Position numbers and translations under genes: made by a program. The notes beneath the pieces were generated by a model, which was not told where the DNA came from, searched no databases, and saw only the letters and a list, made by a program, of their open reading frames with translations. 64,000 nucleotides of DNA, from positions 40,157 to 104,156 of the forward strand of contig JASGJI010000012.1 of assembly GCA_049840815.1 (NCBI GenBank). The letters are read 5' to 3'. Of the stretch, positions 1-20,100 are shown piece after piece (position 1 is the first letter of the stretch; every line of letters starts with the position of its first letter). Source of the stretch: Thermomicrobiales bacterium. Lineage in GTDB: Bacteria; Chloroflexota; Chloroflexia; Thermomicrobiales; UBA6265.

Positions 1-408
1 TATGCGCCGATCCTCGCCGAGATCGAGCGTCGGGATCAGAACGCGGATGCACTCTCAGGTGATCCTCTGGCCCCAGCACCTTCCCACCGGAACAACGACC
101 TGATGGCTCTCGCCGCCGATCTGAAGGCAGCGTGGCCCATCGAGCAGTTCTGCGCCGACCTCCTGGCGATGCGGCTGGAAGGGCGAGGGGCTCGTCTGAA
201 GGGCCGGTGCCCACTCCCCGGACACAACGACGATGATCCCTCCTTCACGGTTTACGTCAGCGACAACCGAACATGGTGCTTCGGTTGCTGGCGCGGCGGC
301 GATGTCATCGACCTGACCCGCCATTACTTCGGCCTGAGCACGTTTCGAGAAGCCGTCGAGAAACTGCAAGACGAGACACGGACCTTCTTCGGGGAGGTTC
401 GCCGATGA
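1..408 (+). CDS. CHC2 zinc-finger primase-like protein (5'-partial or starting at ATG 103)
   Basis: Frame 1 is open from the window edge. CPLPGHNDDDPSFTVY...CFGCWRGGDVIDL matches the DnaG/P4-type CHC2 zinc finger. The stop overlaps the next start (ATGA at 405-408). Confidence 0.65.
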   Translation, partial: YAPILAEIERRDQNADALSGDPLAPAPSHRNNDLMALAADLKAAWPIEQFCADLLAMRLEGRGARLKGRCPLPGHNDDDPSFTVYVSDNRTWCFGCWRGGDVIDLTRHYFGLSTFREAVEKLQDETRTFFGEVRR

Positions 409-2006
409 TCTCCATCTCCGCCGAACAGGAGGCCGCACTGGCCCACCTGCGAGAACGCGATCGGGCGCTGGAGAAAACGGCGCTCACCGCAAATGACATG
501 GACCCGGTTACGGTTCCCCCTGCTCCGCCCTTCCGGATTGACATCCTCCCCGACAGGATCGCCGACTATGTTCGCGCGCAGGCGGCAGCGATCGGCGTCC
601 CAGTCGAGATGATCGCGCTGCCGCTGCTGGCGAACATCGGTGCCCTGATGGGGAATCGAATCGCCATCCAGTTGAAGGCCGGATTCCGCCAATACGCCGC
701 CCTGTGGGTAGGCATGATCGCCCCTCCGGGAGCAGCAAAGACCCCTGCGCTGAACGCGGGCCGCGCGCCACTCGATGTCCTTCAGGGTGAGTGGTATGAC
801 ACCTATCGGACGCAGCGCGCGGAGTACGAGGCCGATCTTGAGCGATGGAGTGCTGCCCCGAAAGGCGAGCGGGGCACCAAGCCCACCCCGCCATCGATGC
901 GTCACGCCTACTCGACGGATGCCACCATCGAGGCCATCGCGGCGATGTTGCAGACAACCTATGGCCTGAGCCTCCAGCACGACGAGCTGGTGTCGTTCAT
1001 TCGCGCGATGGATCAGTACCGAAGCGGCAAGGGTGCCGACAAGCAAAAGTTCCTGTCCTTCTGGGCCGGAACGCCTGCCAAGGTAGATCGGCGCACTGGT
1101 GAACCGATCTATATCCGGCACCCGGTGGTCTCGGTGGTTGGCGGCATTCAGCCGGACCTGATCGCTGACCTCCGCGACCGGAACGGGAAGGAGGACGGCT
1201 TCATTGACCGCTTCCTCCTGATCCGTCCGGATGTCATGCGGCGGGGCTGGTCTGAAGACGAAGCCGATCCGGCGCTGCTTGATGCGGTCGTCACCGATCT
1301 CCGCACGATCGACAAGAATCTCATGCCGGAACCAGATGCAAAGCCAGATCAATTCGAGACGGTACGGCTCCATTCGGAGGCCCGCCATTTGTGGATCGAC
1401 TGGTACAACACTAACGAACGCCGGGTCGCCGGGGCTATGGGACTCCATGCCGGCATCCTCGCGAAGCTACCACTTCAGGTTGCCCGGATCGCCCTCATCT
1501 TGAACACCATCTGGAATATCGAAGACCCTGGTCGGATGGTGTCGGCGTCGATCATGGAAGCAGCGATCTGGCTCGGTGAGTTCTGCCTGACTCACTGGGA
1601 ACGCGCACTGCCTCTGATCGGCCAGAGTGTCCCGGCGGTTGGTGAAAACCTCCCAACCCGGATCATCGCCATCCTGCGGGACGAAGCGACCGCCGAGAAC
1701 GACGGCTGGGTGTCCCGGAGCGTCGTGTACCGCCGACTGCGGAACGTGTCGCCGGAGGACCTGACAACCGCCCTTGACGCTCTCTATGCCGACGGTCTCG
1801 CCGATACCCAGACGATCGAGACCAACCGGAAACCCCGTGAAGAATGGCGAGCAACTGATAAATGCGAATCGCATTTATCGCATTTATCGGTTGCCGGAGG
1901 AATAAATGCGAATAATGCGATTCGCATTTATTCCCAGCACTCCGAAATCGATGTCAATGGTGTCGGGTACGAACCCGAGATTCGCGATGGCGTGGGGGTG
2001 TGGTGA
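405..2006 (+). CDS. DUF3987-like (P4-alpha/D5-associated) helicase-like replication protein
   Basis: 533 aa, translationally coupled to the Zn-finger gene. It has a P-loop-like APPGAAKT and a VVGGIQPD motif that I recall as typical of DUF3987. The 3' end contains repeat module A. Confidence 0.55.
   Translation: MISISAEQEAALAHLRERDRALEKTALTANDMDPVTVPPAPPFRIDILPDRIADYVRAQAAAIGVPVEMIALPLLANIGALMGNRIAIQLKAGFRQYAALWVGMIAPPGAAKTPALNAGRAPLDVLQGEWYDTYRTQRAEYEADLERWSAAPKGERGTKPTPPSMRHAYSTDATIEAIAAMLQTTYGLSLQHDELVSFIRAMDQYRSGKGADKQKFLSFWAGTPAKVDRRTGEPIYIRHPVVSVVGGIQPDLIADLRDRNGKEDGFIDRFLLIRPDVMRRGWSEDEADPALLDAVVTDLRTIDKNLMPEPDAKPDQFETVRLHSEARHLWIDWYNTNERRVAGAMGLHAGILAKLPLQVARIALILNTIWNIEDPGRMVSASIMEAAIWLGEFCLTHWERALPLIGQSVPAVGENLPTRIIAILRDEATAENDGWVSRSVVYRRLRNVSPEDLTTALDALYADGLADTQTIETNRKPREEWRATDKCESHLSHLSVAGGINANNAIRIYSQHSEIDVNGVGYEPEIRDGVGVW
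1827..1931. repeat. AT-rich palindromic iteron module, copy A (inverted partner at 13506-13639)
   Basis: Contains ATAAATGCGAaTCGCATTTAT (10-bp arms), tandem CGCATTTAT, and the nested palindrome GGAATAAATGCGA...TCGCATTTATTCC. The central ~95 nt differ from the reverse complement of copy B at 4 positions. Confidence 0.9.
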
Positions 2007-3183: not shown

Positions 3184-4077
3184 ATGAGCGACAACTTCGC
3201 CTGGGCAAGAGACCTCTATCCCCGGAAACGGCAGCCAGAAATTGGAGAACAGTGGGCGTACCGAGTCAAGCGGACGCTGGGGGAACCTGCCCAACGCGTG
3301 GAGGTTGTGCAGTTCGGTCCCCCTTCGTCCAAGAACAAGATGCGAATCAGGTTTCTCGACGGCGATTTTGCCGGTCTTGACGAGTGGGTGCCGAAGACAA
3401 GGTTGATCCTGCCGTGGGAAGAGCATGATGCCTGGTGGCAGGATGAGCTCAATCTGAAGGCCGCATGGGACTTCGAGGAGGAGATCGACTTCGTAGAATG
3501 GCGTGCGGTCAGCAAAGTATTCTCCGTCTACGGTGAGGGGCGTGTATTTCGCGTCGGGTTCAATCGGAAGGAATATGGCCTACTTGAAGTAAGGGACGAG
3601 GAAGAAGCCACGAAGGCTCTCAACGATCTCGGATTGCCGATCGAATCGCTTCCCATGATCTTCAAGGATCGGCACGGAGTTCATCGTGGCCCCTATTCCG
3701 CCGCTGTCATAGTCGCCAAGCATCTTTGTCAGCAGGCATCCTCAGTCATCGTTGAGGGCGTATCCAAAGATCAGCGACGAGACGAGCTTCACGCGGTTCG
3801 CGGGTGGCATTACGGCAAGGAGTCTCGATACTATGCCAGTCCTGAGTCGATGACCGAGCTTCTCAAGGAGCAAATGCCCATCTATGACCTCGTCCGCTCC
3901 TGGTGCAGCAGAGAGGTGGTTGAAGAGTTCAACAGGATAGATGCCCTCGAAGCTGAAGTAGCTCGTCTGCGCGTGATCATCGAGGATCAGGCTGAACTCT
4001 GGGAGAGGAGTGGAGACAAGCGCCGGGCCAAGCGGCTCCGCAACGAGCTCAATCTGCCGAAAGACACGAGTGATTAG
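3184..4077 (+). CDS. hypothetical protein (orphan, first gene of lower-GC cargo island)
   Basis: 297-aa ORF with an ATG start and coding-like composition. It has a C-terminal coiled-coil-like charged tail. No motif recognised. Confidence 0.55.
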   Translation: MSDNFAWARDLYPRKRQPEIGEQWAYRVKRTLGEPAQRVEVVQFGPPSSKNKMRIRFLDGDFAGLDEWVPKTRLILPWEEHDAWWQDELNLKAAWDFEEEIDFVEWRAVSKVFSVYGEGRVFRVGFNRKEYGLLEVRDEEEATKALNDLGLPIESLPMIFKDRHGVHRGPYSAAVIVAKHLCQQASSVIVEGVSKDQRRDELHAVRGWHYGKESRYYASPESMTELLKEQMPIYDLVRSWCSREVVEEFNRIDALEAEVARLRVIIEDQAELWERSGDKRRAKRLRNELNLPKDTSD

Positions 4078-4161
4078 CTCCTACTGCCTCACCTTTGTTG
4101 TGAGATACTTCGGCATCGGGTTCCACTCGTCCAATCGAATTAGTGAGGCACGGGCCAAACC

Positions 4162-4929
4162 ATGTCTGCTTACGCAAATTACTGGCGCACCATTCCCACC
4201 CTTCAGGCGACGCGAGAACTCGGCCCAGCCGAGGATGGCGTCTCCCGAGCAAGAGTAGTGGATACTCCCGCTGGTGAGTTCTATGTCAAGCACGACGCCT
4301 GGTCCGCGGAAACCGGAACACAGATCGTGGCCAATGAGTTTCTCTCTGCGGCGATCGCCAGTTCGATGAACGTTCCGATCCCAATGTTTGCCGTCGTCGT
4401 GGTGGACGGGAAGCGATGCTTTGGATGTCGCAGTGTCAGGCGGTCTGCACCATTTGTCGATGCCGCACGTCTGAGGGGGTGCAGGAATTTTGAGAGCCTG
4501 TACTCGCTGTTGGTGTTCGATGTCTGGCTGGACAATCACGATCGCCACAACGGGAACGTCATCATTGGACAAGACGGCGGGCGCACCGTTTTTTGGGCTA
4601 TCGATCATAGCCATTGTCCTTTTCCGCCTAGGCGGCTACCCCATCACCTTCCGGCATTGCATGGCCCTGAAGGCGCAGGCTCCTGCATTCCCAGCTGGTA
4701 CGCGCGCGAAGTGACCAGCATCCCCCTGCTACAACGGGCAATTGACGCAGCCAATACACTCTCCGATGATGAGATAGCGGACATTGTTCCAGGCGTCCCT
4801 GGGCAGGACTGGTCCGAAAGTGGTATCGCGCAGATCGTTGATTTCCTCGTGCATCGCCGAATCAATCTTCGGAAAATGCTAGACACGGCACGGTTTTCGC
4901 TCTCCAACCTGGAAGGAGGATCCCTGTGA
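4162..4929 (+). CDS. HipA-like (HipA_C / PI3/4-kinase-fold) serine/threonine kinase
   Basis: FDVWLDNHDRHNGNVII matches the HipA catalytic loop (D-x-H-x-x-N). WAIDHSHC is an Mg-binding D-like motif. The N-lobe has a FYVKHD lysine. Confidence 0.65.
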   Translation: MSAYANYWRTIPTLQATRELGPAEDGVSRARVVDTPAGEFYVKHDAWSAETGTQIVANEFLSAAIASSMNVPIPMFAVVVVDGKRCFGCRSVRRSAPFVDAARLRGCRNFESLYSLLVFDVWLDNHDRHNGNVIIGQDGGRTVFWAIDHSHCPFPPRRLPHHLPALHGPEGAGSCIPSWYAREVTSIPLLQRAIDAANTLSDDEIADIVPGVPGQDWSESGIAQIVDFLVHRRINLRKMLDTARFSLSNLEGGSL

Positions 4930-5756
4930 AGTCTGCTCGGTACAGCCTAATCAGATATATCCCCGACCTGGCGCGCAACGAGCCGGTCAATATCGGAATC
5001 GCAGCGTGGACCGATCACGAACTGTTGATCAAGCTATCAAAGGATGGTCTAGATCGAGCGTTTCACAGTGCACCGGACCTTTCACCTGGTGCCTTCGAAG
5101 GGTTTGAAGATTACCTGTGTGACCGGATTTCTCGACACTGGAAGACAAATCTCTCGACTCATTTCGAGGAGGCAGAGAGTCTTTTGGCGTCTTGCATTGA
5201 TCGCCCTGCCACCGTGACTCCTTCACTGTTCGTTGGAATCGATGAGAGCCGCCCCGAGCGTGAAGCGCTTGAGTTGGTGTGCGCGGAACTGGATGCTCGG
5301 CTGATCCGCCCCCCTCGAAGGTACTCTGGTCGTCGCTCTGAAGGGCTGGTCGAGTCGATGAGACGATCACTCTCGCCATTCCTGGCAGCTCACAAGGTCC
5401 ATATGGACCACGAGTTCAAGGAGACACGATCTGGCCTCCCCCAGACTGTTGACTTCTTCGTCAACTCGGGGTCCGATATCGCCCTCGACGTATTGGCCGT
5501 TCGATCAAACGCAGGGGCCGAGAGCATACTGTTGAGGTCGAGCGCGCAAGCCGCGAAGGTCATCGACATTCGCGGTTCCCAAGGAAAAACGCAAGTTTCC
5601 GAATTCCTTGTATACGCCCCAGTGGACCAGCGAGCAAACCTGGGAGACTACATCGACAAGGTGAGACAAAGCCTCTCAATAAGTGATTGCCGAGTCCTCA
5701 CCAGCCGAGACGAGGTCTTCGAAATCGTCCGCGATCAGGTGGGCGGACTCGTATAG
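4926..5756 (+). CDS. DUF3037-like protein
   Basis: The GTG start overlaps the kinase stop (GTGA at 4926-4929). The N-terminus YSLIRYIPDLARNEPVNIGIAAW resembles the DUF3037 signature as I recall it. Confidence 0.5.
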   Translation: MKSARYSLIRYIPDLARNEPVNIGIAAWTDHELLIKLSKDGLDRAFHSAPDLSPGAFEGFEDYLCDRISRHWKTNLSTHFEEAESLLASCIDRPATVTPSLFVGIDESRPEREALELVCAELDARLIRPPRRYSGRRSEGLVESMRRSLSPFLAAHKVHMDHEFKETRSGLPQTVDFFVNSGSDIALDVLAVRSNAGAESILLRSSAQAAKVIDIRGSQGKTQVSEFLVYAPVDQRANLGDYIDKVRQSLSISDCRVLTSRDEVFEIVRDQVGGLV

Positions 5757-6043
5757 GTCGTCATATCTAGGCGATCGTAAGGCAGGGAGTGTGCCCCTCC
5801 CGGTCCACCACACGCTCGCGCGCACCGGGCAGGAGCCCCACGCCAACCACGGCGACACACAGGCAAAGGCTGTGGCATACTCGGTCGAACGGGTCAGCCC
5901 ACAATCGAATCCACCATCCGGAGCCTGCCATGCGCCGTCTCGCCGACCTGATCCCCTACCCTCGCAGTCTCGCGCTCCTGGGCAACGCCGCCAGTGCAGT
6001 CAGCTCGGAGAAATGATGGACGCCCCTCCCAAATGCTGTTAGG

Positions 6044-6793
6044 GTGTGTTCCTCAGGGACGCTGGAACAGATTGACAAGCCGATTGGCAGACCTAACAAT
6101 AGCTACCGACATCCGTTCGTCACCCTCTTTGAAGCTGTAGCGAGGCACCAATCCGTGGAACTGCCAGTATCCGTCCTAGTGGTAGAGCTTCGGAGATTCG
6201 CGCCCAAGGTCCTCGACACGCGGGGTATTATCGCCCAGCAACTTGTTGATGCCTACCTTTCGGTAACGGTCGAAAGTGGTCCGGGTTCGCTCCTCGAAAC
6301 CATCGGCTTCAACAATGAGAGCGGTACGATCCGTGCGGCGGTAAGCGGGTACACCGCGACATATCAGGAGGCAACCCCGCCCGACTCGCTCGCTTTCGAG
6401 GTCGCTGCGCAATCGTTCTTGAAGCGCGTCGAGAAGATTGCCGATCCCGTGGAATACGAACGACTAGGCATCCTCGTGGGATTCCGAAGCTCTGTTCCCC
6501 GCTCAATAGTTGGGCGATTTCTCAACTCGCCGATTAGTCAGCATGCCGATCGTTGGCAAGTGACGGATGGACATATCCAGTTCATGCGAAACGACGACAA
6601 CCGTGGCGTCACCGTTGATTTCCGATTTCTCACGAGCACGAATCTCAATCCTGGCTCAAATCTGGCAGATATAGAAATCCAGGTTGATCAGTGGCACCTG
6701 CGGCCCGAAAAGCTGCACGCTCGCAACCCGAAGGTGAATCAGGCGGTTCAAGAAGCGCGACGGTTGGTTGCTGACTTGCTCAAGGAGGAGTAA
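6044..6793 (+). CDS. hypothetical protein (first gene of PIN operon)
   Basis: 249-aa ORF. The next ORF starts 3 nt after its stop. No motif confidently recognised. Confidence 0.5.
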   Translation: MCSSGTLEQIDKPIGRPNNSYRHPFVTLFEAVARHQSVELPVSVLVVELRRFAPKVLDTRGIIAQQLVDAYLSVTVESGPGSLLETIGFNNESGTIRAAVSGYTATYQEATPPDSLAFEVAAQSFLKRVEKIADPVEYERLGILVGFRSSVPRSIVGRFLNSPISQHADRWQVTDGHIQFMRNDDNRGVTVDFRFLTSTNLNPGSNLADIEIQVDQWHLRPEKLHARNPKVNQAVQEARRLVADLLKEE

Positions 6794-6795
6794 GC

Positions 6796-7206
6796 ATGGC
6801 ACTACAACATACACACGCCTATCCAGAAGACGAATCGAGATTGCTCTCGGGCACAACCGTGTTGCCCGATCCGACTAGAACAACTACGGGCACTCAGGAT
6901 CCTGCCGGAGGGCACTCTACGTTTGACAAGTCTTCGACGCAACTTCAGCAAGGTGGCACCTCAACGATCCGTCTCGGCAATACGTCGCCAACGGTAGCCT
7001 CTCCGATGTTCACGCCATCTGGACGATCCGTATACCTGAGACGCCGCCTTGAAGAGCAACGTCTCTACGCAACTCTAAAGTCTGAAGAGGGCAAGGATCC
7101 GATTCAAGAAATTGACCGAGTCGCTGAGGAACTTTTCGGGGATGTGGTTGGCTACGAGCTACTCGCGGAAGTCCTGGCCGGCGGTGATCTCGATCATGGC
7201 TGGTAA
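6796..7206 (+). CDS. hypothetical protein (possible antitoxin-like partner of PIN)
   Basis: 136 aa with a low-complexity N-terminal half and a helical C-terminal half. Its 3' end overlaps the PIN gene start by 11 nt. Confidence 0.45.
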   Translation: MALQHTHAYPEDESRLLSGTTVLPDPTRTTTGTQDPAGGHSTFDKSSTQLQQGGTSTIRLGNTSPTVASPMFTPSGRSVYLRRRLEEQRLYATLKSEEGKDPIQEIDRVAEELFGDVVGYELLAEVLAGGDLDHGW

Positions 7207-7807
7207 GGTCGTGGATCTAAGCAGCCAGCTTGACAGTATTCCCGAGTTCTGCGTTGTTGACACGAACGTCCTGATCTCGCTATTCGTCCCGGCCACATCT
7301 CCGACCAATGCGAGGCAACGCAGTCAATCCCAAGCCCTTCGGCAACATCTGGAACAGGAAGATAAAGGCGGGTTTGTCACTCCGACTACCGTTGCGGAAA
7401 TCGCACACCTGTTTGTCAAGCTGGAGTTCACGCGCGAACTGAAGAACAATCTTGTCAAGCACGAGGCGGACTTAAGAAATCGCTTCCCAGGCAAGGCCAG
7501 GTTCGACTGGCTAGATTTGTGCAAGGTCTATCCAAGGCCCTTCGAAGCTGCTGCAAAATCGCTTCAGACCGCCTGCAGCCAAATACGTACCAGCTTCGTC
7601 TTTCTTGAACCGTTTGACCTTAGCCCGAATGCACCGGGTACACACCAATTCACGGACCTTGCCGCCGCCATAAAGCGGTACCGCATGGACTCCAATGACG
7701 CATCAATTTTGATTGAAGCTCGGCGCGCAGGAATTTCGGCAATCGTTTCGCATGATGGTGATTTGCGCAGGGCCAGCAAAGACTTTGATGTCTATACGTG
7801 GCTCTAG
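7196..7807 (+). CDS. PIN-domain nuclease (VapC-like, enlarged)
   Basis: The acidic quartet is in PIN order: VVDTNVL, TVAEIAH, DSNDASI, SHDGDL. At 203 aa it is larger than a canonical VapC. Confidence 0.7.
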   Translation: MAGKVVDLSSQLDSIPEFCVVDTNVLISLFVPATSPTNARQRSQSQALRQHLEQEDKGGFVTPTTVAEIAHLFVKLEFTRELKNNLVKHEADLRNRFPGKARFDWLDLCKVYPRPFEAAAKSLQTACSQIRTSFVFLEPFDLSPNAPGTHQFTDLAAAIKRYRMDSNDASILIEARRAGISAIVSHDGDLRRASKDFDVYTWL

Positions 7808-7819
7808 TCCATAGGTCGT

Positions 7820-7851
7820 GAAAGCGTGGCAGGAGATGCTGCCACGCTTTC
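7820..7851. terminator. Bidirectional hairpin between convergent gene blocks
   Basis: GAAAGCGTGGCAG-gagat-GCTGCCACGCTTTC (about a 13-bp stem), located where the + and - gene arrays converge. Confidence 0.6.
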
Positions 7852-7885
7852 CGTTCACCTTACAGCCCGGTCCCTCGTGGGGAAG

Positions 7886-7999
7886 TTAGGTGGCCTCCCG
7901 ATCGATGACCGTCTCCGGTTCATACTCCATCTCGGCCAGGTATCCCCAGAAGAGTTGCAGCTTCGGGTTCCAGCGATCAGGACACGGCCCCTCACGCAT
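7886..7999 (-). CDS. small hypothetical protein (37 aa)
   Basis: The ATG overlaps the upstream stop (TGATG). The product is MREGPCPDRWNPKLQLFWGYLAEMEYEPETVIDREAT. It is below the ORF-track size cut-off. Confidence 0.35.
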   Translation of the reverse strand: MREGPCPDRWNPKLQLFWGYLAEMEYEPETVIDREAT

Positions 8000-8307
8000 C
8001 ACATACAGCCCGCTCTCGGCACTTCGCACCTGACGGCGAACACGAGATCGTAGCCGGTGTCGCTTGCATCCTCGTACGTGGCGTCCAGCACATCAAAGCC
8101 AACAACCCGCATCACAGGCGCGTCATCGTCTATCAGCTCGACTCTCGCAATGGTCGGATTGCCCGTCCAGCGGTCAAACAGGTCGCCGGAATCGATCGCG
8201 AATTCCACGGGCTGGGCCGCGGTCACGATGATCTGGGTCTCAGCCAGATCGTTGTATTCGGTGAATCCGGTCGGACAGGCGACCAGGACGTGATTGAGAT
8301 TCGTCAT
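7999..8307 (-). CDS. hypothetical protein (102 aa)
   Basis: Internal ATG at 8307 preceded by GGAGACC. The longer 219-aa track ORF overlaps the excisionase-like gene in another frame. Confidence 0.5.
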   Translation of the reverse strand: MTNLNHVLVACPTGFTEYNDLAETQIIVTAAQPVEFAIDSGDLFDRWTGNPTIARVELIDDDAPVMRVVGFDVLDATYEDASDTGYDLVFAVRCEVPRAGCM

Positions 8308-8360: not shown

Positions 8361-8405
8361 GCCAACACCACGACCGGTGATGTTCACACCGGTCGTGGTG
8401 TTGGC
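8361..8405 (-). terminator. Perfect 19-bp stem hairpin with the upstream gene's stop codon in its loop
   Basis: GCCAACACCACGACCGGTG / CACCGGTCGTGGTGTTGGC with a 7-nt loop containing the stop at 8384-8386. Confidence 0.5.
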
Positions 8406-8563
8406 GACCAGCGACCGCGCAGGAAGTCCTCGAACGCCTCGTCAGGAATGGTGTAGGAACCGCCGATCTTGTAGCCCGGCAGCTCGCCGCGCTGGATTCC
8501 GGCATAGATCGTGTGCTTGTCCAGCCCGGTAACACGGATGAGGTCGGAGACTTTCTTCGGCAC
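8384..8563 (-). CDS. Excisionase-family helix-turn-helix DNA-binding protein (59 aa)
   Basis: GTG start with a GGAGGAA RBS. VSDLIRVTGLDKHTIYAGIQRGELPGYKIGGSYTIPDEAFEDFL fits the excisionase/MerR-like HTH pattern. It is missing from the ORF track because it is under 60 aa. Confidence 0.65.
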   Translation of the reverse strand: MPKKVSDLIRVTGLDKHTIYAGIQRGELPGYKIGGSYTIPDEAFEDFLRGRWSPTPRPV

Positions 8564-10359: not shown

Positions 10360-10917
10360 CTAGCCGAGATCGATACGGCGGGTCTCGGCGATGACGACGG
10401 TGGTGCCGTTGCCTGCCGTCGCGGCGATGGTTGCCCGGCGTTCAGCTCGGGCGGTGTCCCGACGTTCACGGGCGGCGTTAGCCACCGGGTTGTTCGGCTG
10501 CTTGCGCGGCGCGACCGGCGTGGGGTCCTGCTGCGGGTTCTTTCTCGCCTTCCGCTGAGCCTTCCAGGCGTCCGGCTCCCACGCCTTGCCGTGCTCGGCC
10601 TCCCAGTCGGAAATGCTCTCCGTCTGGGCGATGTCGAAGGCGCTGCCCAGGTTGAAGCGCGGGTGCAGGTCCATCTCTCCGGCGAGCATGCCGGCGGCGT
10701 GGTCAATGCTCGGTGCGTTGGCGATGTCGTCAGCGAGTCCATCGGCACTGCGGACCTTCGGCACAAAGATCTTGATCGCCTTTTCACCCTTCCTGATCTT
10801 CCGGCCACGCATGGCCCACTCGCTCGCGGGCAGCACGACGGTCGCGGTCGGGAACTGGGATGCGATCAATCGGGCATTGGTAACGCTGTAGCGTTCGGTG
10901 AAGAGAGGCATGTCCAC
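10360..10917 (-). CDS. ArdC-N-like (DUF1738-like) ssDNA-binding protein, no protease domain
   Basis: ASEWAMRGRKIRKGEKAIKIFVP resembles the ArdC N-terminal motif (W..G..V+KGEK). The C-terminal half is basic and low-complexity. GTG start with an AGGAAGGA RBS. Confidence 0.45.
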   Translation of the reverse strand: MDMPLFTERYSVTNARLIASQFPTATVVLPASEWAMRGRKIRKGEKAIKIFVPKVRSADGLADDIANAPSIDHAAGMLAGEMDLHPRFNLGSAFDIAQTESISDWEAEHGKAWEPDAWKAQRKARKNPQQDPTPVAPRKQPNNPVANAARERRDTARAERRATIAATAGNGTTVVIAETRRIDLG

Positions 10918-11417: not shown

Positions 11418-11627
11418 ATGAAGACGATCGAGCAGATGAGGAAGTCCGCGGGCATGACGCAGATGCAGTTAGCCGTAGCGGTCGGTGTGTCGCTCGCCAC
11501 GGTGTACAACTGGGAAGCCCGCAAGACTGAGCCGAAAGCATCACAACTCCGGAAGGTTGCGACTCTCTTCGGGGTATCGATGGACGATATCGACTTCGAG
11601 CCAAGAGACAAAGTAGCCGCCGGGTGA
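11418..11627 (+). CDS. XRE-family helix-turn-helix transcriptional regulator
   Basis: MTQMQLAVAVGVSLATVYNWEARKTEP is a classic Cro/CI-type HTH. 69 aa. Confidence 0.85.
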   Translation: MKTIEQMRKSAGMTQMQLAVAVGVSLATVYNWEARKTEPKASQLRKVATLFGVSMDDIDFEPRDKVAAG

Positions 11628-13505: not shown

Positions 13506-13639
13506 CATATTCGCATTTGTCCCTCCGCCAACCGATAAATGCGAATCGCATTATTCGCATTTATTCCTCCGCCAACCGATAAATGCGATAAATGCGAATC
13601 GCATTTATCAGTTGCCCGCCATTCCTCACGAGGCTTCCG
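13506..13639. repeat. AT-rich palindromic iteron module, copy B (inverted relative to copy A, with one extra unit)
   Basis: The reverse complement of 13535-13630 matches 1836-1931 with 4 mismatches. There is an additional CCTCCGCCAACCGATAAATGCGA-like unit at 13506-13545. Confidence 0.9.
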
Positions 13640-14141: not shown

Positions 14142-17100
14142 GTGTCCCAGTACAACCAGTTCCTGAAGAACGCCGTGAACAACGCGCTGGCCGCGACGAA
14201 GCCGCAGACTGCCCTCTCCCCTGTGGCGCAGTCGCTGCTTGCCGCATCGCAGTCGGCGGCACAGCGGCAGGTCAGCCAGCCCGCGATGCCGTCCGTCGGC
14301 GCGCAGTCGGCAGCGTCGGCGACGAGCCGGTTTGGCGGGTTGCCTGATCCGACGGAACTGGGACGGCAGGCGGCACAGGCGATCCAGCAGAACGCCATCC
14401 AGAGGTCGATCGCCCAGCCGACACCTGCACCGCCGCTGAACGCTGGTGTCTTCGGTCAGAACGCCGCGACCAGTCGTGCTCGGTTCGATCAGCGCCCTGC
14501 GGCGCTCCCCTCGTCACAGAACGCCATGACCGGTGTGCTGACCGCGCAGCCGGTGATGGGCCTCTCACAGAAGGCAGCCCAGGCAGCGGTAAGCGAGGGC
14601 GCGGAGAACCGCCCCGGCTCGTCCACGGCGGCGAGTACTGGCGCGCCCCTCTCCCCGTCCGAACGGCTCGTCTCGGTCTACAGTCCGGATGGCAAGCTCG
14701 TCATCGTACCGGAATCGCGCGCGTCCACCCTGCCCACCGGCTGGCAGAAGGGGAGCGAGATCGAGGCGGGCAAGGTCGATCGCGCGAAGCAGAGTCCTGC
14801 CTATATCGACAATCAGGATGCCCAGACGCAGGCACAGTTCCCGGTGGCGACCCCTGTCGCTCCGGTTACTCCGGCTGCGTCCGGCGGCGCAACGCAGCAG
14901 ACTCAGATGAGCGGTATGGGCGGCGGCTCTGGCATGCAGCAGGAAGCCCCTGGGCCACATCCTGTGTCGGCCAAGGGCGATCCGGAGACGACATACGTCG
15001 TCGTCACCAGCTCGACCGACCCGAGCGCCCAGCCGGTCATCATGACCGAGTGGGAGTACTGGAACCTCTACGCCAACGATCCCGAGTATCAGGTTCTCTC
15101 GAATCAGCGGATGAACGCCGAGGTGGCGGCAAGTGGGCGCATGATCGACCAGGGCGACTACGTCGCCCAGCGCCAGAAGGGCGTCGAGCCGTCCGCCAAC
15201 ACCGGCAATCCCGGAGAGATCAGCTACGTCACCGACGCGGTTGGCAACGCCGCTGGCTACGCGGGCGACAAGATCGGCGAGGCAGCTAGCTACGTCGGCG
15301 GCAAGGTGGCCGACGGTGCCGGTGCCCTCTGGGGTGCGGTCCCCGATACGGTGAAGCACGGAGCAGCCGAAGCGGCGAAGAAGAGTGGGCAGGCCGTGCT
15401 CGAAAGCCGATGGGTGAAGAGTGCCGGCGCTGCGTGGGAATCGCTGCCACAGGGAGCGAAGGACTGGATCATCCAGCACAACATCGAGATCATCGACATG
15501 CCGCGCGGGTTCACCGTCGAGACGGGCACCGGAGCGATCTACAAGAAGTCACGAGGTGAAAGCCTCGACGGCGGCGACGTGGCCACGGCAACCTATCTCG
15601 ATTCGATGACCGTTGCCGCCACAGCCATCCCCGGAGGCGGCGACAAGTCGATCAGCGCCTACATCGAGGACAACCAGGACGAAGCCGATCGGGTCTACCG
15701 CTATGGCTGGGATGCCGACGGTGACGGGGTGGCCGACTACACCGGCGATCGGGCGATCTGGGAATGGTATGTGAACAGCCTGAGTGTCCCCGAGCGGATG
15801 TTCCTCGATACCGTCACCGACCCGCTCTCGGCCACCGGGGTGATGGGCAAGGCCGGTCGCGGGCTTCGGGTAGCAGGCCGTGCCGTGGAAGGGGCCGAGG
15901 ATGCCAGCATCGTGGAGAAGGCCATCGGAAAGGTCCTGACGGGGGCCGGTGCTGTCGCTGAGGCCCCCGAAGCGGTGTTCGACAAGCCGGTCGATTTCGT
16001 CTTCGACCACGCCGGCAGGGTCGTCGGCAAGGTCGTCAAGCGCACGCCGATGTCGGTCGGAGAGGAAAAGGCTGGCCAGGCAGCCGGTACGCTGGAGCAG
16101 GTCACCAAGCGGGACAGTATCGAGCGACGATCCGCTGGCGGTGAGGGCGGAGTTCCGCCGACGCCTGCCGGACCTGATGGGTCAGTGGCGGTTGGCTCGG
16201 CTGACGCCGAAGGCTACGTCTTGCAGGCCGACGGCACGCGCGCCAAGACCATTGGTAACCGGACGGTTGCTCGCCATCCGGATGGCACGATGGTCATCAC
16301 CCGCCAGAATGCCGACACGACGATCATCTACCCCGACGGCAGTCAGGTCACGATCTCGAAGGATCAGGCCGGGCCACTCGCGCCGACGGCTGGTACGCCG
16401 ACCGGGACGAATCCGTCGGGTGGCCCGACGCTTGCCGAAACGCCAGCCGGTCCGGAGGTCCCGAAGCCTCGCGGAGAGGACGTGCGAACGCCCGGCGGGG
16501 AAGGCGGCGCTCCTACCCATCCGGCATCGGCAGCATCGAAGACAGTGCCTGCCAGCACGGTGCCGGAAGATTGGGGAGCGCCGACCGTCACGACGACCGA
16601 TGGCGTGACGGAGTCCCGCTACCCGAACGGCACCACCCGCTATGTGGATGAGACCACGGGCGAGGCGGAGACGTATTACGCCGACGGCGTTCGCGTTGTC
16701 GAGACGCCCAACGCCGAGCCGCTGGTCGAGTACGAGTACCCCGACGGATCATTCCGCGAAACGCCGCCGACCGGGACGGCAGCGCGGGCCGGTCGGATCG
16801 ACACCCTCGAATACAACCAGGTCGCTCCCGCCCGTGTGGGTGACCGCTTCCCCACCGAGGGGTTGGACAAGCGCCAGGCGGAGGTTGTGACGGCCTTCAA
16901 CCAGCGGCTTTCCCGGCAGAACGCATCGAAGTACAAGACCTATATCGACAGGCCGGACTACTATCCAGCCCGGCAGGAAATTGACATTGCGACCGGCATT
17001 GCGGCGCAGGCCGACGAACTCGAATCGCGATTCGGGCGGATCACGCCGAGTGCTCCTCCCGCGGTTGGCAAGGCCTCTGTGCAGGGCAACGATGTGCGCA

Positions 17101-20100
17101 GGGTCCTGTATGAACCATGGGACACCACCGCGACGGAGCGCTCACGCCTCTACAAGAGCGGCGCGATATCCGCCGATTCCGCCCCGAATGGCCGTGCCCG
17201 CGAAGCGTACCGGAACCTCGTCGAATCCCATGCCCGCTTCGTTCCCGAGGATGTGGAGTACTCGGCAGACTTCCGTCGTGCGCTCGATCAGGCACGCGAC
17301 ATCTACACTGGAGGCAAGCCACGGATCGACCCCTATAGCAGCCGCCTAGCCACACGACGGCCCGGCAACGTTGGCATCGTGAGGAATCCCCGTGCCGAGG
17401 CCGAGGCTGCTGCGGGGCGAACGAGCAATCTCTTCGACCGCTATCGCGACTCCTATCGCGCCGTGCAGCGGGCAGAGCGCGAGAAGCACGTCGGTGCGGG
17501 CGGCTGGGTTGGGGATGGCAGTGCTGAACCGGTGATGGTTCGCGGTCGGGCGCTGGCTCCCAGCGAGTACCGCGACCTGACCGACGACGCGCTCGCCATG
17601 CCACGCGAGTTCTCCCAGGTCGATCATCGCGACAAGCGATGGGTCAAGGAGTGGGAGAAGGGTGAGCGTAAGGGGGTCGAGACGGAGACGCCGCTCGATC
17701 GCTGGGAACGCAAGGCCGACGAGTACGAGCGGCGCGGGCTTGATCCGCGCGCTGCCGATACACGAGCTGCCCAGGATGTCATCTCCGACATGAACCGGTG
17801 GAACGACCTGAAATACGGCATGATCAAGGGGCGAGCCACCGGCGAGCAGTCAACCGCGGCCATGAAGGCGTTCGATGTCTACCGGAACATGCAGCAGCTC
17901 TCGCGCGAGGGCATGCTGACTGGGCCAACGACCGGTCTCCGGTATGTGACGAATCAGGGCCTGGGCAACGCTGTGACGCTGATCATCACGCGCAACGGGG
18001 ACCCGCTGGACCTCCTGCGGTACACGTTCAACGTCCGTGGCCTGAAACGGAACTACGAGGACATCACGAAGCTGGCGAACTTCCAGCACACGCTGGATCA
18101 CCAGGCGGACGAGCTGCTCGGGCGGAAGGCGGCGAAGGACGGGATCTCGGTCGGAGAGTGGGTGCAGCTGTCCGACAAGTCGGATGTCCGCGCTTCCCGT
18201 GTGGGCTATCGCATCAGGAACGATGTCGAGACGCAGGTCCGCATGGAGATGGGGGACATCACCGCCTACCAGCGATCCGCGTGGGCAAAGCTGCTCGGGT
18301 CACCGTTCGCAGATGGCAGCACGGCGCAGCGCGTCGCCGACGTGGCTTCCCGTTTCGTTTCTGTGCCCGAGTTCGCCAAGGCAGCCGCCGCCTATGACAT
18401 GTATGCGCGGAAGTTCCTGCAGGAACGGATCGTCAAGCGCGAGTGGAGCAGCCTGCTCGACGACATCACCGAACGGGTGGTGAAGGAGACGAACGGTCGG
18501 GTCGGTCGCGAAGAAATGGCGGACTTCGTCGCGCGCACCGACGGCGGGTGGTTCTCGCAGGATGACCTGCGTGTCTTCCTGAAGGAGCAGGGCGTCAGCG
18601 ACGCGACCTCCGTTCGGGTTGGCAGTGCGTGGCAGGAAGGCGTCAACCGGGTCTACGACAAGGGCGCGCAGGAAGTGAAGCGCGTCATGTTCTACGGGCG
18701 GACGAATGCCGACGAGCTGATGGGGCACATCTTCGCCTTCCACTACTGGATGTCGCGCGCCAGCAAGCTCTATGCCCAGGAGTTGCTGAGCAACCCGGCC
18801 TACCTCGCGGCCTACATCCGGATGAACAAGGGCCTCGAACACATGGCCGAAGATGGCCGCTATCCCGCGTGGTTGCGCGGTACGATCCGGATCGGTCTCG
18901 GGTTGTTCCCTGGCTTCAACATCTACCTGAATCCCATGCAGTTCCTCCAGACGCTCGTGACGGGGCAGTACGGCGACACCTTCGATGACAAGGACGTGCC
19001 CACCTGGCGCAAGGTCCTGGAGGCCACAGGCCTGATGATGAGCCCGCCGCTGCAGACCGCGCTGGACATGGCCGGTCTTGGTGGTGACGGCCCGATTGCC
19101 GACCCGATCGGGGCTAGCGCAACGGTCGGCACAGCGGTCGATGCTGCCAACTTCGTGCAAGCCCAGACGAACCCGAGTGGTGGTGTGATTGCCGATCCCT
19201 ACCAGAAGGCATTGCGCTGGGGAGCGGAGAAGGTCTCTGCGGTGGCTGCGGAGGTGGGCATGCCTGGCGCGAAGCCGGTCGCACCGAAGACCGGCACCGA
19301 GCAGAAGAATCGCGAGATCAACGAGATGATCATCACGATCGCGGAAGAGAAGGGCATCATCTCATCTGACGTGGCCGAGCGGGCGCGACAGGCGGACGCG
19401 AACGGCCAGACGTTGCCGGATGAGGTCGTGACCGCGATGAACAACCCGGACGATCCGTTGTGGCAGGAGGCCTACCAGCGGGTCGCGGTGAAGGATGTCG
19501 TTCTGCGCACAACGAAGGCGACACCGTTCGGCGTCCTCTACCCCCAGGTGCGAACCGAGACGCGGGATGAGCGGTTGGCGATCACCGACCGTGGCAGCGA
19601 GGATCTGCCTGCATGGCAGGCCACCATCAACGACATCCTGTCGATCGCGCGGACCGGTCGTCCGGAACGGGATCGGCCTGCCAGCCCCGAAGTGATCGCG
19701 GATGGCGGCAAGGACCCGCAGACTGGGAACGTGTCCCTGAAGGAGCGGGCACTTCGCCAGTACTACGGCAGCGCCTACCAGTCCGGCACCAGCGAGGCCG
19801 ACCAGGCGTATGCCGAAGGGCGGATCACGAACTCGGCGACGAGCGAATCGGCTCAGCTGCAATCGGAAGTCGAGAAGGTCTATTCGGCGGGCACAAGCGA
19901 TCCCCGCGTGAAGGTTGCCGCCAATCGGGCGAACAGGATCGTCTATGGTGAGGACGATGGCAGCTTCAAGGGCGTCTTCGTGAAGGGGACGATCTACACC
20001 CCGGAGCAGCTGGCAAGCATGACCGATAGCCAGCGCCGCTCGCTCGCAGCCATGTGGCTGGACGAACAGGGCATGACTGCCGCTGTGAAGAAGAGCAAGG

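What the first reader, a model, noticed from the sequence alone, without database searches (positions are those of the whole stretch)
4162..5756. Overlapping HipA-like kinase + DUF3037-like gene pair in mobile-element cargo: candidate uncharacterised toxin/antitoxin or anti-phage module
Seen in the sequence:
- A 255-aa ORF carries a HipA-type catalytic loop (DNHDRHNGN) and a downstream IDH motif.
- Its stop overlaps the GTG start of a 276-aa ORF (GTGA at 4926-4929), which implies co-translation and fixed stoichiometry.
- The second protein begins YSLIRYIPDLARNEPVNIGI, which I recognise as DUF3037-like, a family with no assigned function.
- Both genes sit in a visibly lower-GC island inside an integrated element, between replication genes and a PIN operon.
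- No HipB-like HTH antitoxin is adjacent.

Established: HipA-family kinases are growth-arresting toxins that phosphorylate aminoacyl-tRNA synthetases, and toxin kinases are recurrent in defence islands.

Inference: the DUF3037-like protein is the cognate antitoxin, sensor or substrate of a two-gene abortive-infection-type system.
Basis: partly seen in the sequence, partly recalled or inferred. Interest (0 to 1): 0.72.

Follow-up and report, generated by a model that had tools for sequence, protein, structure and literature searches.

The report
Known HipA-kinase/DUF3037 defence pair, divergent copy
The two overlapping genes are real and form a conserved kinase-toxin plus DUF3037-antitoxin cassette, but this cassette type (PDC-M66, also called DS-6 or HipAD) has already been described and shown to protect E. 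coli from phage, so this is a distant Chloroflexota copy of a known system and not a new one.

Summary
A 255-aa HipA_2-family kinase gene (4162-4929) overlaps a 276-aa DUF3037 gene (4926-5756) by GTGA. A GGAGG ribosome-binding site sits in the last codons of the kinase gene. The pair lies in a modest low-GC stretch between replication genes and a PIN operon.

The window proteins match the Pfam and PADLOC models only weakly. Family-level evidence is strong:
- An exhaustive profile search found about 144 representative relatives of the second protein; 74 of 76 tested carry DUF3037.
- In all 11 related loci with enough upstream DNA, a kinase homologue sits directly upstream, almost always with the same 4-nt overlap.
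- Profile-profile comparison with the experimentally validated E. coli system DS-6 gives 98.7% probability for the kinase and 96.6% for the DUF3037 protein, over nearly its full length.

Published work shows that the DS-6 kinase catalytic Asp is needed for defence. In the Retron-Sda1 homologue, deleting the DUF3037 gene is toxic and deleting the kinase abolishes defence.

What is new is modest: a rare, very divergent clade from Chloroflexota and Actinomycetota metagenomes, in which the restriction-endonuclease-like C-terminal domain has its own conserved residues.

The parts
4162..4929 (+). Gene A: a 255-aa minimal HipA_2-family Ser/Thr kinase, the putative toxin or effector. It lacks the N-terminal subdomain of classical HipA.
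   Evidence: ORF. Pfam HipA_2 29.3 bits, above the cutoff of 27. phrog_3162 E 5e-13. All 11 clade kinases hit HipA_2, best E 1.6e-13. hhalign against DS-6A gives 97.3% and against the DS-6A clade 98.7%, E 1.7e-16.
4531..4557 (+). Catalytic loop DNHDRHNGN (residues 124-132). D127 is the predicted catalytic Asp and N132 a predicted Mg/ATP ligand.
   Evidence: Read from the sequence. N125, D127, R128, H129 and N132 are invariant in 11 clade kinases. In the hhalign alignment D127 falls on DS-6A D139, the residue whose D139A mutant loses defence.
4600..4608 (+). IDH motif (residues 147-149). D148 is the predicted Mg-binding Asp, equivalent to the DFG Asp of other kinases.
   Evidence: D148 and H149 are invariant in the clade. 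They align with the invariant D164-H165 of the DS-6A clade. The PI3_PI4_kinase model matches residues 112-152.
4913..4920 (+). Shine-Dalgarno-like AAGGAGGA for gene B, embedded in the codons for E-G-G at the kinase C-terminus. Its last G is 6 nt before the GTG start.
   Evidence: Read from the sequence. A purine-rich GGAGG or GGGAG stretch lies at the same place in nearly all of the 16 junctions examined.
4926..4929 (+). GTGA stop/start overlap, implying translational coupling of A and B.
   Evidence: An NTGA overlap is present at all 16 junctions from both clades. DS-6 has the same 4-nt overlap, at coordinates 2415-2418.
4926..5756 (+). Gene B: a 276-aa two-domain DUF3037 protein, the putative antitoxin and possibly a sensor.
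   Evidence: ORF. About 144 representative relatives, mostly full length. AF2 model with mean pLDDT 92. hhalign against the DS-6B clade gives 96.6%, E 5.8e-10, over 241 columns.
4926..5327 (+). B N-terminal domain (residues 1-134): DUF3037, with invariant D14, E19, N22 and G24.
   Evidence: Pfam DUF3037 matches residues 6-32 of the window protein and 74 of 76 relatives. Invariant columns. Domain limits from the model.
5340..5753 (+). B C-terminal domain (residues 139-276): a restriction-endonuclease-like alpha-beta-beta-beta-alpha-beta fold. D188, K211 and D214 are nearly invariant within this clade.
   Evidence: Secondary structure. Foldseek hits to restriction endonuclease, DUF1828/1829-type, DUF2726 and DUF559 proteins in BFVD. 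Weak PDB hits to Can2, Cas4, XisH and Exo5. Conserved residues. DS-6B carries a DUF1829 (PDDEXK clan) call at the equivalent place.
4078..4161 (+). The 84-nt intergenic region upstream of gene A, presumed to hold the promoter and any operator. It contains an 8-nt inverted repeat, TGCCTCAC (4085-4092) and GTGAGGCA (4143-4150).
   Evidence: No promoter-like site was called here. The repeat is short and is not conserved in L001, so it may be chance.

Best explanation
The locus is a divergent member of the HipA_2-kinase/DUF3037 two-gene system known as PADLOC PDC-M66, DS-6 or HipAD. This is a toxin-antitoxin-type anti-phage module carried as cargo of a mobile element in a Thermomicrobiales (Chloroflexota) genome.

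Shown here:
- Gene A encodes a minimal kinase with an intact catalytic loop (D127, N132) and Mg-binding Asp (D148).
- Gene B encodes a DUF3037 domain fused to a restriction-endonuclease-like domain.
- The two genes are translationally coupled, with an NTGA overlap and an embedded Shine-Dalgarno sequence.
- The pair moves as a self-contained cassette between unrelated genomic contexts.
- Both proteins are homologous to the validated DS-6 proteins.

Inferred by homology:
- Free kinase A arrests growth by phosphorylating an essential target that has not been identified.
- B binds and neutralises A.
- Phage infection removes or overrides B. How is unknown: shut-off of its synthesis, degradation, or sequestration by a phage product or phage nucleic acid are all possible.
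- The freed kinase then stops the infected cell or the phage.

The C-terminal domain of B lacks residues shared with the DS-6 clade. It therefore more likely acts as a binding or sensing module than as a conserved nuclease.
For: Family membership:
- Pfam HipA_2 above its cutoff.
- Paired PADLOC hits, PDC-M66A with PDC-M66B, for the window proteins and more strongly for the 54-56%-identical sister pair.
- 73 of 76 B relatives hit PDC-M66B.
- hhalign 98.7% (kinase) and 96.6% (B, 241 columns) against DS-6 clade profiles built from the published DS-6 sequences and annotated plasmid homologues.

Architecture matches DS-6: the kinases are 255 and 249 aa, the B proteins 276 and 275 aa, the gene order is the same, and both have a 4-nt overlap.

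Conserved pairing: a kinase lies directly upstream in 11 of 11 related loci with enough DNA, and all 16 junctions have an NTGA overlap, nearly all with a Shine-Dalgarno-like stretch.

Cassette behaviour: flanks differ between loci and include integrases, excisionase-type HTH proteins, a methylase, Mrr, IS elements and phage tail genes.

Function in homologues:
- DS-6 defends E. coli and needs D139.
- In the Retron-Sda1 operon, loss of the kinase abolishes defence against phage Bas51 and loss of the DUF3037 gene is toxic.
- AF3 predicts an A-B complex for DS-6, ipTM 0.76-0.79.

Both window proteins also match phage protein families, phrog_3162 and phrog_5137.
Against: - Nothing about function was tested for this locus, and the host is an uncultured MAG.
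- Similarity to the validated system is remote: about 13-20% identity in the hhalign alignments.
- The window B protein alone fails the Pfam DUF3037 cutoff and hits PDC-M66B only at E 1.8e-3 over 36 residues.
- The C-terminal half of B shows no similarity to DS-6B as a single sequence (hhalign 0.4%). Only profile-profile comparison bridges it, with moderate column confidence.
- The conserved C-terminal residues differ between the clades (D188/K211/D214 here, K186/P187/H201/W205 in the DS-6 clade), so the way A is neutralised or phage is sensed could differ.
- No complex prediction was possible, and the kinase model was unusable (pLDDT 39).
- The kinase target and the phage trigger are not reported for the family in the papers read here.
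Confidence: 0.78

Rival explanations
1. The pair is mainly an addiction or stabilisation (post-segregational killing) toxin-antitoxin module for the mobile element. Any anti-phage effect would be secondary or absent in this host.
For: The pair sits among element maintenance genes: primase zinc finger, DUF3987/helicase, HTH_17, an ArdC-N-like gene and an XRE regulator. Relatives are on plasmids and next to IS elements or integrases. Loss of the DUF3037 gene is toxic in a homologue, which is the behaviour expected of an addiction module. Toxin-antitoxin modules are known to stabilise mobile elements (abstract of PMC8262856).
Against: Two independent homologues give measurable phage defence that depends on the kinase. 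The two roles are not mutually exclusive.
Confidence: 0.12
2. B is not only an antitoxin. Its restriction-endonuclease-like C-terminal domain would be an active nuclease or a nucleic-acid sensor that serves as effector or trigger. The kinase would then regulate B by phosphorylation, or be released when B binds phage DNA.
For: The C-terminal domain has a restriction-endonuclease-like fold. D188, K211 and D214 are nearly invariant in the clade. The weak top PDB hits are sensor-plus-nuclease proteins, Can2 and Cdn1. AF3 predicted a weaker DS-6B-DNA contact, ipTM 0.67.
Against: - No canonical D...(D/E)xK arrangement is present: D188 lies at the end of the third strand and K211/D214 lie in the following helix.
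- D176 on the second strand is not conserved.
- The conserved residues are not shared with the DS-6 clade.
- No PDB hit reaches E 1e-3.
- Loss of the DUF3037 gene is toxic and loss of the kinase abolishes defence in the homologue, which places the toxic activity in the kinase.
Confidence: 0.08
3. The pair is a classical HipBA-type persistence module whose HTH antitoxin lies elsewhere, and the DUF3037 gene is only a neighbour.
For: The kinase shares the HipA catalytic core. There is a weak HipA_C hit for the window kinase, and 7 of 11 clade kinases hit HipA_C.
Against: No HTH gene is adjacent. The kinase lacks the HipA N-terminal subdomain (255 aa, HipA_2 model). The DUF3037 gene is coupled to the kinase by a 4-nt overlap in every locus examined.
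Confidence: 0.02

Closest known systems
DS-6 / HipAD of E. coli (DS-6A WP_000389051.1 + DS-6B WP_000210934.1; DeWeirdt et al., Science 2026, PMC13092281; Brenes & Laub, Cell Host Microbe 2025, not readable here)
   Same: - Same gene order: a kinase of about 250 aa, then a DUF3037 protein of about 275 aa.
- Same 4-nt overlap.
- The catalytic Asp aligns (D127 with D139).
- B has the same DUF3037 N-terminal domain followed by a PDDEXK-clan-like C-terminal domain.
- No HipB-like HTH protein.
- Carried on mobile elements.

   Different: - Very low sequence identity, about 13-20% in the hhalign alignments.
- Chloroflexota host, not Enterobacteria.
- The kinase C-terminal motif is LxGGxL, against FW[SE]xI in the DS-6 clade.
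- Different conserved residues in the C-terminal domain of B.
- No experimental data for this clade.

PADLOC candidate system PDC-M66 (models PDLC04766 for A and PDLC04767 for B)
   Same: Both window proteins hit the A and B models as a pair. The sister pair and 73 of 76 B relatives also hit.
   Different: The hits are weak: E 4e-4 and 1.8e-3 for the window proteins, and the best in the clade is 3e-8. For the window protein the B hit covers only the first 36 residues. By my inference, an automated PADLOC run might therefore miss the locus.
HipA-like/DUF3037 pair in the Retron-Sda1 operon (PLoS Biol 2025, PMC12548924)
   Same: A stand-alone kinase plus DUF3037 module. The genetics there define the roles: loss of the kinase abolishes defence, and loss of the DUF3037 gene is toxic.
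   Different: That copy sits beside a type III retron reverse transcriptase and ncRNA, and its DUF3037 C-terminus resembles a retron DNA-binding protein. No retron reverse-transcriptase domain was hit among the window ORFs tested around the pair.
Classical HipBA / HipBST toxin-antitoxin systems
   Same: A kinase toxin of the HipA superfamily with a D-x-H-x-x-N catalytic loop, neutralised by a protein partner.
   Different: - No HTH antitoxin.
- Reversed order, with the toxin gene first.
- No HipA N-subdomain-1 and no HipS.
- The Hip phylogeny paper (PMC8262856) is not among the papers that mention DUF3037 (the paper was read).
- GltX and TrpS are the targets of HipA and HipT only.

Membership tests
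HipAD / DS-6 / PDC-M66 two-gene system | Gene A is a short kinase of the HipA_2 family, homologous to DS-6A, with the catalytic Asp intact | tested here: met
   HipA_2 29.3 bits against a cutoff of 27. hhalign 97.3% against DS-6A and 98.7% against its clade. D127 aligns with D139. The catalytic-loop residues are invariant in the clade.
HipAD / DS-6 / PDC-M66 two-gene system | Gene B carries an N-terminal DUF3037 domain homologous to that of DS-6B | tested here: met
   The window protein alone is below the cutoff (18.7 against 22.6 bits). The sister protein scores 33.4 bits, 74 of 76 relatives match, and hhalign against the DS-6B clade gives 96.6%.
HipAD / DS-6 / PDC-M66 two-gene system | Kinase gene immediately upstream of the DUF3037 gene, same strand, translationally coupled | tested here: met
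   GTGA overlap at 4926-4929. Paired in 11 of 11 related loci. NTGA at all 16 junctions. DS-6 coordinates 2415-2418 overlap in the same way.
HipAD / DS-6 / PDC-M66 two-gene system | C-terminal domain of B is of the DUF1829 / PDDEXK-clan type, as in DS-6B | tested here: inconclusive
   The model and Foldseek hits indicate a restriction-endonuclease-like fold, and the profile-profile alignment extends through this domain. Against that, no member hits Pfam DUF1829, comparison with DS-6B as a single sequence fails, and the conserved residues differ.
HipAD / DS-6 / PDC-M66 two-gene system | Kinase-dependent anti-phage protection; toxicity when B is absent | not testable with these tools
   Known only for homologues.
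Classical HipBA type II toxin-antitoxin | HipB-like HTH antitoxin encoded upstream of, and overlapping, the kinase gene | tested here: not met
   The upstream ORF 3184-4077 and the downstream ORF 6044-6793 have no HTH hit. The nearest HTH genes are more than 2.6 kb away.
Classical HipBA type II toxin-antitoxin | Full-length HipA (about 440 aa) with the N-terminal subdomain and a HipA_C match | tested here: not met
   The protein is 255 aa, and HipA_C gives E 0.17 and 11.9 bits against a cutoff of 30.5.
PD-(D/E)xK nucleases (C-terminal domain of B) | Catalytic D on strand 2 and (D/E)xK on strand 3 of the alpha-beta-beta-beta-alpha-beta core | tested here: not met
   The core topology is present. 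However, D176 on strand 2 is variable, strand 3 has only D188 at its end, and K211 and D214 lie in the following helix. Model coordinates could not be inspected, so a non-canonical active site is not excluded.

The most novel reading that the evidence does not exclude
In this Chloroflexota/Actinomycetota clade, the restriction-endonuclease-like C-terminal domain of the DUF3037 protein, with its clade-specific near-invariant D188/K211/D214, would be a working nucleic-acid sensor or nuclease. B would then be the phage sensor or a second effector as well as an inhibitor, and the way the kinase is released would differ from the E. coli DS-6/HipAD system.
Probability: 0.12. Interest if true: 0.5.

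Novelty: new member of a known kind. Interest (0 to 1): 0.22.

Why it matters
The value is mostly corrective. A locus flagged as a candidate new defence system belongs to a family that has already been catalogued and tested, so it should not be pursued as a discovery.

There is some residual value:
- It extends the HipA_2/DUF3037 system to a rare, deeply divergent clade from environmental Chloroflexota and Actinomycetota. The standard models barely detect this clade, and the source record names both window genes 'hypothetical protein'.
- It shows that translational coupling (an NTGA overlap with a Shine-Dalgarno sequence embedded in the conserved kinase C-terminus) is common to both clades examined.
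- It shows that the C-terminal domain of the DUF3037 protein keeps a restriction-endonuclease-like fold while its conserved residues change between clades. That contrast could help map the kinase-binding or sensing surface.

In the papers read here, the kinase target and the phage trigger are not reported.

Tried and rejected
- Word-indexed protein searches returned only the self hit, one 54-56%-identical relative, and one distant hit. The exhaustive profile search was needed to find the family.
A tighter 8-sequence subset worked but found nothing in viral contigs.
- `look-up of encoding contigs` has no record of the window protein, so the left flank of the element could not be read.
The 2-sequence job gave pLDDT 39, which is unusable, so no fold search was run on it.
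- phmmer of the kinase against PDB sequences gave only chance hits.
- tblastn of both window proteins against the phage collection gave no match.
- The C-terminal half of B compared with DS-6B as a single sequence showed no similarity. Only the clade-profile comparison bridged it.
- An 8-nt inverted repeat upstream of the kinase gene was considered as an operator. I set it aside because it is short (by my estimate about 0.2 expected by chance in 161 nt) and is not conserved in L001.
- The primary HipAD paper (pmid 40409266) is not held. The Payne et al. preprint does not mention M66 or HipA.
- No integrase or att-type direct repeat was found in 1-24 kb, so 'integrated element' stays an inference from gene content.
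Full report
**1. What is in the sequence**

ORF A (4162..4929, +, ATG, 255 aa) and ORF B (4926..5756, +, GTG, 276 aa) exist as described. They overlap by GTGA at 4926-4929.

- The kinase carries DNHDRHNGN at residues 124-132 (nt 4531-4557) and IDH at residues 147-149 (nt 4600-4608).
- B starts MKSARYSLIRYIPDLARNEPVNIGI.
- The last kinase codons (GAA GGA GGA) form AAGGAGGA at 4913-4920, ending 6 nt before the GTG start of B. This is a Shine-Dalgarno sequence embedded in coding sequence.
- GC is 0.54-0.58 over 3501-8000 and about 0.60-0.68 on either side.
- The source record names both proteins 'hypothetical protein' of a Thermomicrobiales MAG, locus tags QM753_11870 and QM753_11875, on a 238-kb contig.

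**2. Profile searches on the window proteins**

The window proteins alone give weak matches.

- Kinase: Pfam HipA_2 scores 29.3 bits against a cutoff of 27. PI3_PI4_kinase matches the catalytic loop. HipA_C fails. The strongest single-sequence hit is the phage family phrog_3162, E 5e-13, nearly full length.
- B: DUF3037 scores 18.7 bits, below the cutoff of 22.6, and covers only residues 6-32. phrog_5137 gives E 4e-6.
- PADLOC gives paired hits to the two components of one candidate system: PDC-M66A (E 4e-4) and PDC-M66B (E 1.8e-3).
- NCBIfam adds nothing.

**3. Family-level evidence**

- Only one close relative pair exists in 5.8 billion clustered proteins (54-56% identity, Logan contig L001). 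It has the same overlap and different neighbours. That pair passes DUF3037 (33.4 bits) and hits PDC-M66A and PDC-M66B at about 1e-7.
- An exhaustive HMM search with the two-sequence B profile found 144 representatives at E<=1e-3, and 95 at E<=1e-10. Most are 255-285 aa and match end to end.
- Of 76 aligned members, 74 carry DUF3037 and 73 hit PDC-M66B, with a best E of only 3e-8. This is a distinct, divergent clade.
- The members with names come from Chloroflexota and Solirubrobacteraceae MAGs, and the clusters are tiny.

**4. Conserved pairing**

- Eleven loci encoding B relatives were fetched: three Chloroflexota MAGs and eight metagenome contigs.
- In every locus with enough upstream DNA, a kinase homologue lies directly upstream on the same strand (hmmsearch E 1e-27 to 1e-36), and one further contig holds a truncated copy.
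- All 11 clade kinases hit HipA_2, with a best E of 1.6e-13.
- E59, N125, D127, R128, H129, N132, D148 and H149 are invariant.
- All 16 junctions examined, including five proteobacterial plasmid loci, have an NTGA overlap, and nearly all have a GGAGG- or GGGAG-like stretch 5-9 nt upstream. That stretch is encoded by the conserved kinase C-terminal motif: LxGGxL in this clade and FW[SE]xI in the DS-6 clade.
- Flanking genes differ from locus to locus. They include three tyrosine integrases, two HTH_17 proteins, an N6/N4 methylase, Mrr_cat, NA-iREase1 and AAA_21, alongside housekeeping genes. The pair therefore behaves as an autonomous cassette, often on integrative elements.

**5. Structure of B**

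- AlphaFold2 with the 76-sequence alignment gives a mean pLDDT of 92.2 and two domains joined by a disordered linker at 135-138.
- The C-terminal domain (139-276) has an alpha-beta-beta-beta-alpha-beta core.
- Foldseek against the PDB finds nothing at E<=1e-3. The weak list is nonetheless rich in restriction-endonuclease-like folds: Can2, Cdn1, Cas4 SSO0001, XisH, Exo5, the R2 endonuclease domain and CdiA-CT DNases.
- Against BFVD, two unnamed viral proteins match over the full length (E 1e-10 and 4e-9). They are followed by a DUF1828-domain protein, a cyanophage restriction endonuclease, and DUF2726 and DUF559 proteins.
- The clade's near-invariant C-terminal residues are D188, K211 and D214. 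They do not form a canonical D...(D/E)xK arrangement: D176 on strand 2 is variable, and K211 and D214 lie in the helix after strand 3.

**6. Prior knowledge**

A full-text search for DUF3037 led to three descriptions of this pair.

- In the Retron-Sda1 operon, DUF3037 is 'strongly associated' with HipA-like kinases, and PADLOC calls the pair PDC-M66. Deleting the kinase abolishes defence against phage Bas51, deleting the DUF3037 gene is toxic, and the retron parts are dispensable (PMC12548924).
- DefensePredictor validated DS-6. DS-6A is a HipA-related kinase, and DS-6B is DUF3037 plus DUF1829. A catalytic mutant loses defence, and AF3 predicts an A-B complex with a weaker DNA contact. The authors state they had independently found the same system and renamed it HipAD (PMC13092281). 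The reference is Brenes & Laub 2025, which could not be read here.
- The supplement gives the DS-6 sequences. DS-6A is 249 aa and DS-6B is 275 aa, with a 4-nt overlap, a D139A mutant, and DUF1829 (PDDEXK clan) assigned at residues 163-260 with HHpred probability 0.78.

RefSeq already annotates the pair on Pantoea, Pseudomonas, Photobacterium and Vibrio plasmids as 'HipA family kinase' plus 'DUF3037 domain-containing protein'. All annotated examples have the 4-nt overlap and lie next to IS elements, integrases or phage tail genes. The 2021 Hip-kinase phylogeny is not among the papers that mention DUF3037.

**7. Direct comparison with the validated system**

- Kinase clade profile against DS-6A: 97.3%, E 1.7e-11.
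- Kinase clade profile against a six-member DS-6A clade profile: 98.7%, E 1.7e-16, over 196 columns. D127 aligns with D139.
- B clade profile against DS-6B alone: 75%, N-terminal region only. The C-terminal halves compared alone give 0.4%.
- B clade profile against the six-member DS-6B clade profile: 96.6%, E 5.8e-10, over 241 columns, reaching to about residue 262 of 276.
- In that alignment the conserved C-terminal residues are not shared. D188 falls opposite K186, and K211 and D214 fall opposite basic residues. This argues against a common catalytic site and for a clade-specific interaction surface; that reading is my inference.

**8. Interpretation**

The locus is a divergent member of the HipA_2/DUF3037 (PDC-M66, DS-6, HipAD) system.

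- Shown: homology of both proteins, identical architecture, translational coupling, cassette mobility, and intact kinase catalytic residues.
- Inferred from the homologues: A is the toxic or defensive kinase, B neutralises it, and infection releases A. In the papers read here, the target of the kinase and the trigger are not reported.
- Rivals, all less likely: an element-stabilisation role; B acting as a nuclease or sensor effector; a classical HipBA system with a distant HTH antitoxin. The last is contradicted by the strict coupling of the pair.

**9. Surroundings**

- Upstream: a CHC2 primase zinc finger (103-408), overlapping by ATGA a DUF3987/phage-helicase-like gene (405-2006; phrog_2373, E 7e-40). 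Then come unknown ORFs at 2290-2919 and about 3184-4077.
- Downstream: three tightly packed co-directional genes, 6044-6793, 6796-7206 and a PIN-domain gene at 7196-7807. The first and third gave no PADLOC hit; the second was not tested against PADLOC.
- Further on, on the minus strand: HTH_17 (8384-8563) and an ArdC-N-like gene (10360-10917, just below the Pfam cutoff). There is also an XRE HTH gene at 11418-11627.
- Host-type genes appear after a tRNA cluster at 21.2-21.9 kb: a TPR protein, RuvB and QueA.
- No integrase lies in the visible part. 'Integrated element' is a reasonable but unproven reading.

**10. Verdict**

- The novelty claim is refuted.
- Novelty class: new member of a known kind.
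- Interest: low, 0.22.

Noticed in passing
window 1852-1940 and 13508-13617: The 10-mer ATAAATGCGA, often arranged as the palindrome ATAAATGCGAATCGCATTTAT, occurs 11 times in the 64-kb window, with shuffles giving a mean of 1.3 and a maximum of 5. All copies lie in two clusters 11.6 kb apart. One cluster is inside the 3' end of the DUF3987/helicase gene and the other is near 13.5 kb. Together they bracket the kinase/DUF3037 pair, the PIN operon and the regulatory genes. The segments 1852-1893 and 13573-13614 are near reverse complements of each other. They are candidate origin iterons or element-end repeats.
   Followed up: partly
window 6044-7807: Three co-directional, tightly packed genes lie directly downstream of the pair in the same low-GC stretch: 6044-6793 (249 aa), 6796-7206 (136 aa), and a PIN-domain protein at 7196-7807 with a large insertion in the domain. 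The first two have no significant Pfam or PHROG match. The first and the PIN protein gave no PADLOC hit; the middle one was not tested against PADLOC. This could be a second toxin-antitoxin or defence module.
   Followed up: partly
window 4906-4929 and the equivalent junctions in L001-L011 and L013-L017: The extreme C-terminus of the kinase is conserved: LxGGxL in the Chloroflexota clade and FW[SE]xI in the DS-6 clade. In both, the codons spell a Shine-Dalgarno-like GGAGG or GGGAG 5-9 nt before the overlapping start of the DUF3037 gene. Part of this protein conservation may therefore reflect a constraint from translation initiation.
   Followed up: yes
window 103-408 and 405-2006: The CHC2 primase zinc-finger ORF ends in an ATGA overlap with the likely true start (M45 of the listed ORF) of the DUF3987/phage-helicase-like gene. 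Primase and helicase functions therefore appear to be split between two coupled genes.
   Followed up: partly
window 14142-21005: A 2287-aa ORF in high-GC sequence (0.63-0.68), between the element-like genes and the tRNA cluster. It has no Pfam domain above threshold; only Tcp10_C appears, at 29 bits against a cutoff of 36.
   Followed up: no
BFVD entries A0A516KTX2 (261 aa) and A0A516KZK0 (287 aa): Two unnamed viral proteins match the model of the DUF3037 protein over its full length (Foldseek E 1e-10 and 4e-9). A DUF1828-domain phage protein also aligns over the full length (E 6e-4). This hints that DUF3037-plus-endonuclease-like proteins and DUF1828/DUF1829 proteins share a two-domain plan.
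   Followed up: no
L001 3641-3955 (minus strand): In the only close relative locus, an XRE-type HTH gene (HTH_31, E 6e-16) lies convergent, 30 nt downstream of the DUF3037 gene. No such gene is adjacent in the window.
   Followed up: partly
window 10360-10917 (minus strand): A 185-aa ORF matches the N-terminal ssDNA-binding domain of the anti-restriction protein ArdC, just below the Pfam cutoff (22.2 against 22.6 bits). This fits a transferable element.
   Followed up: no
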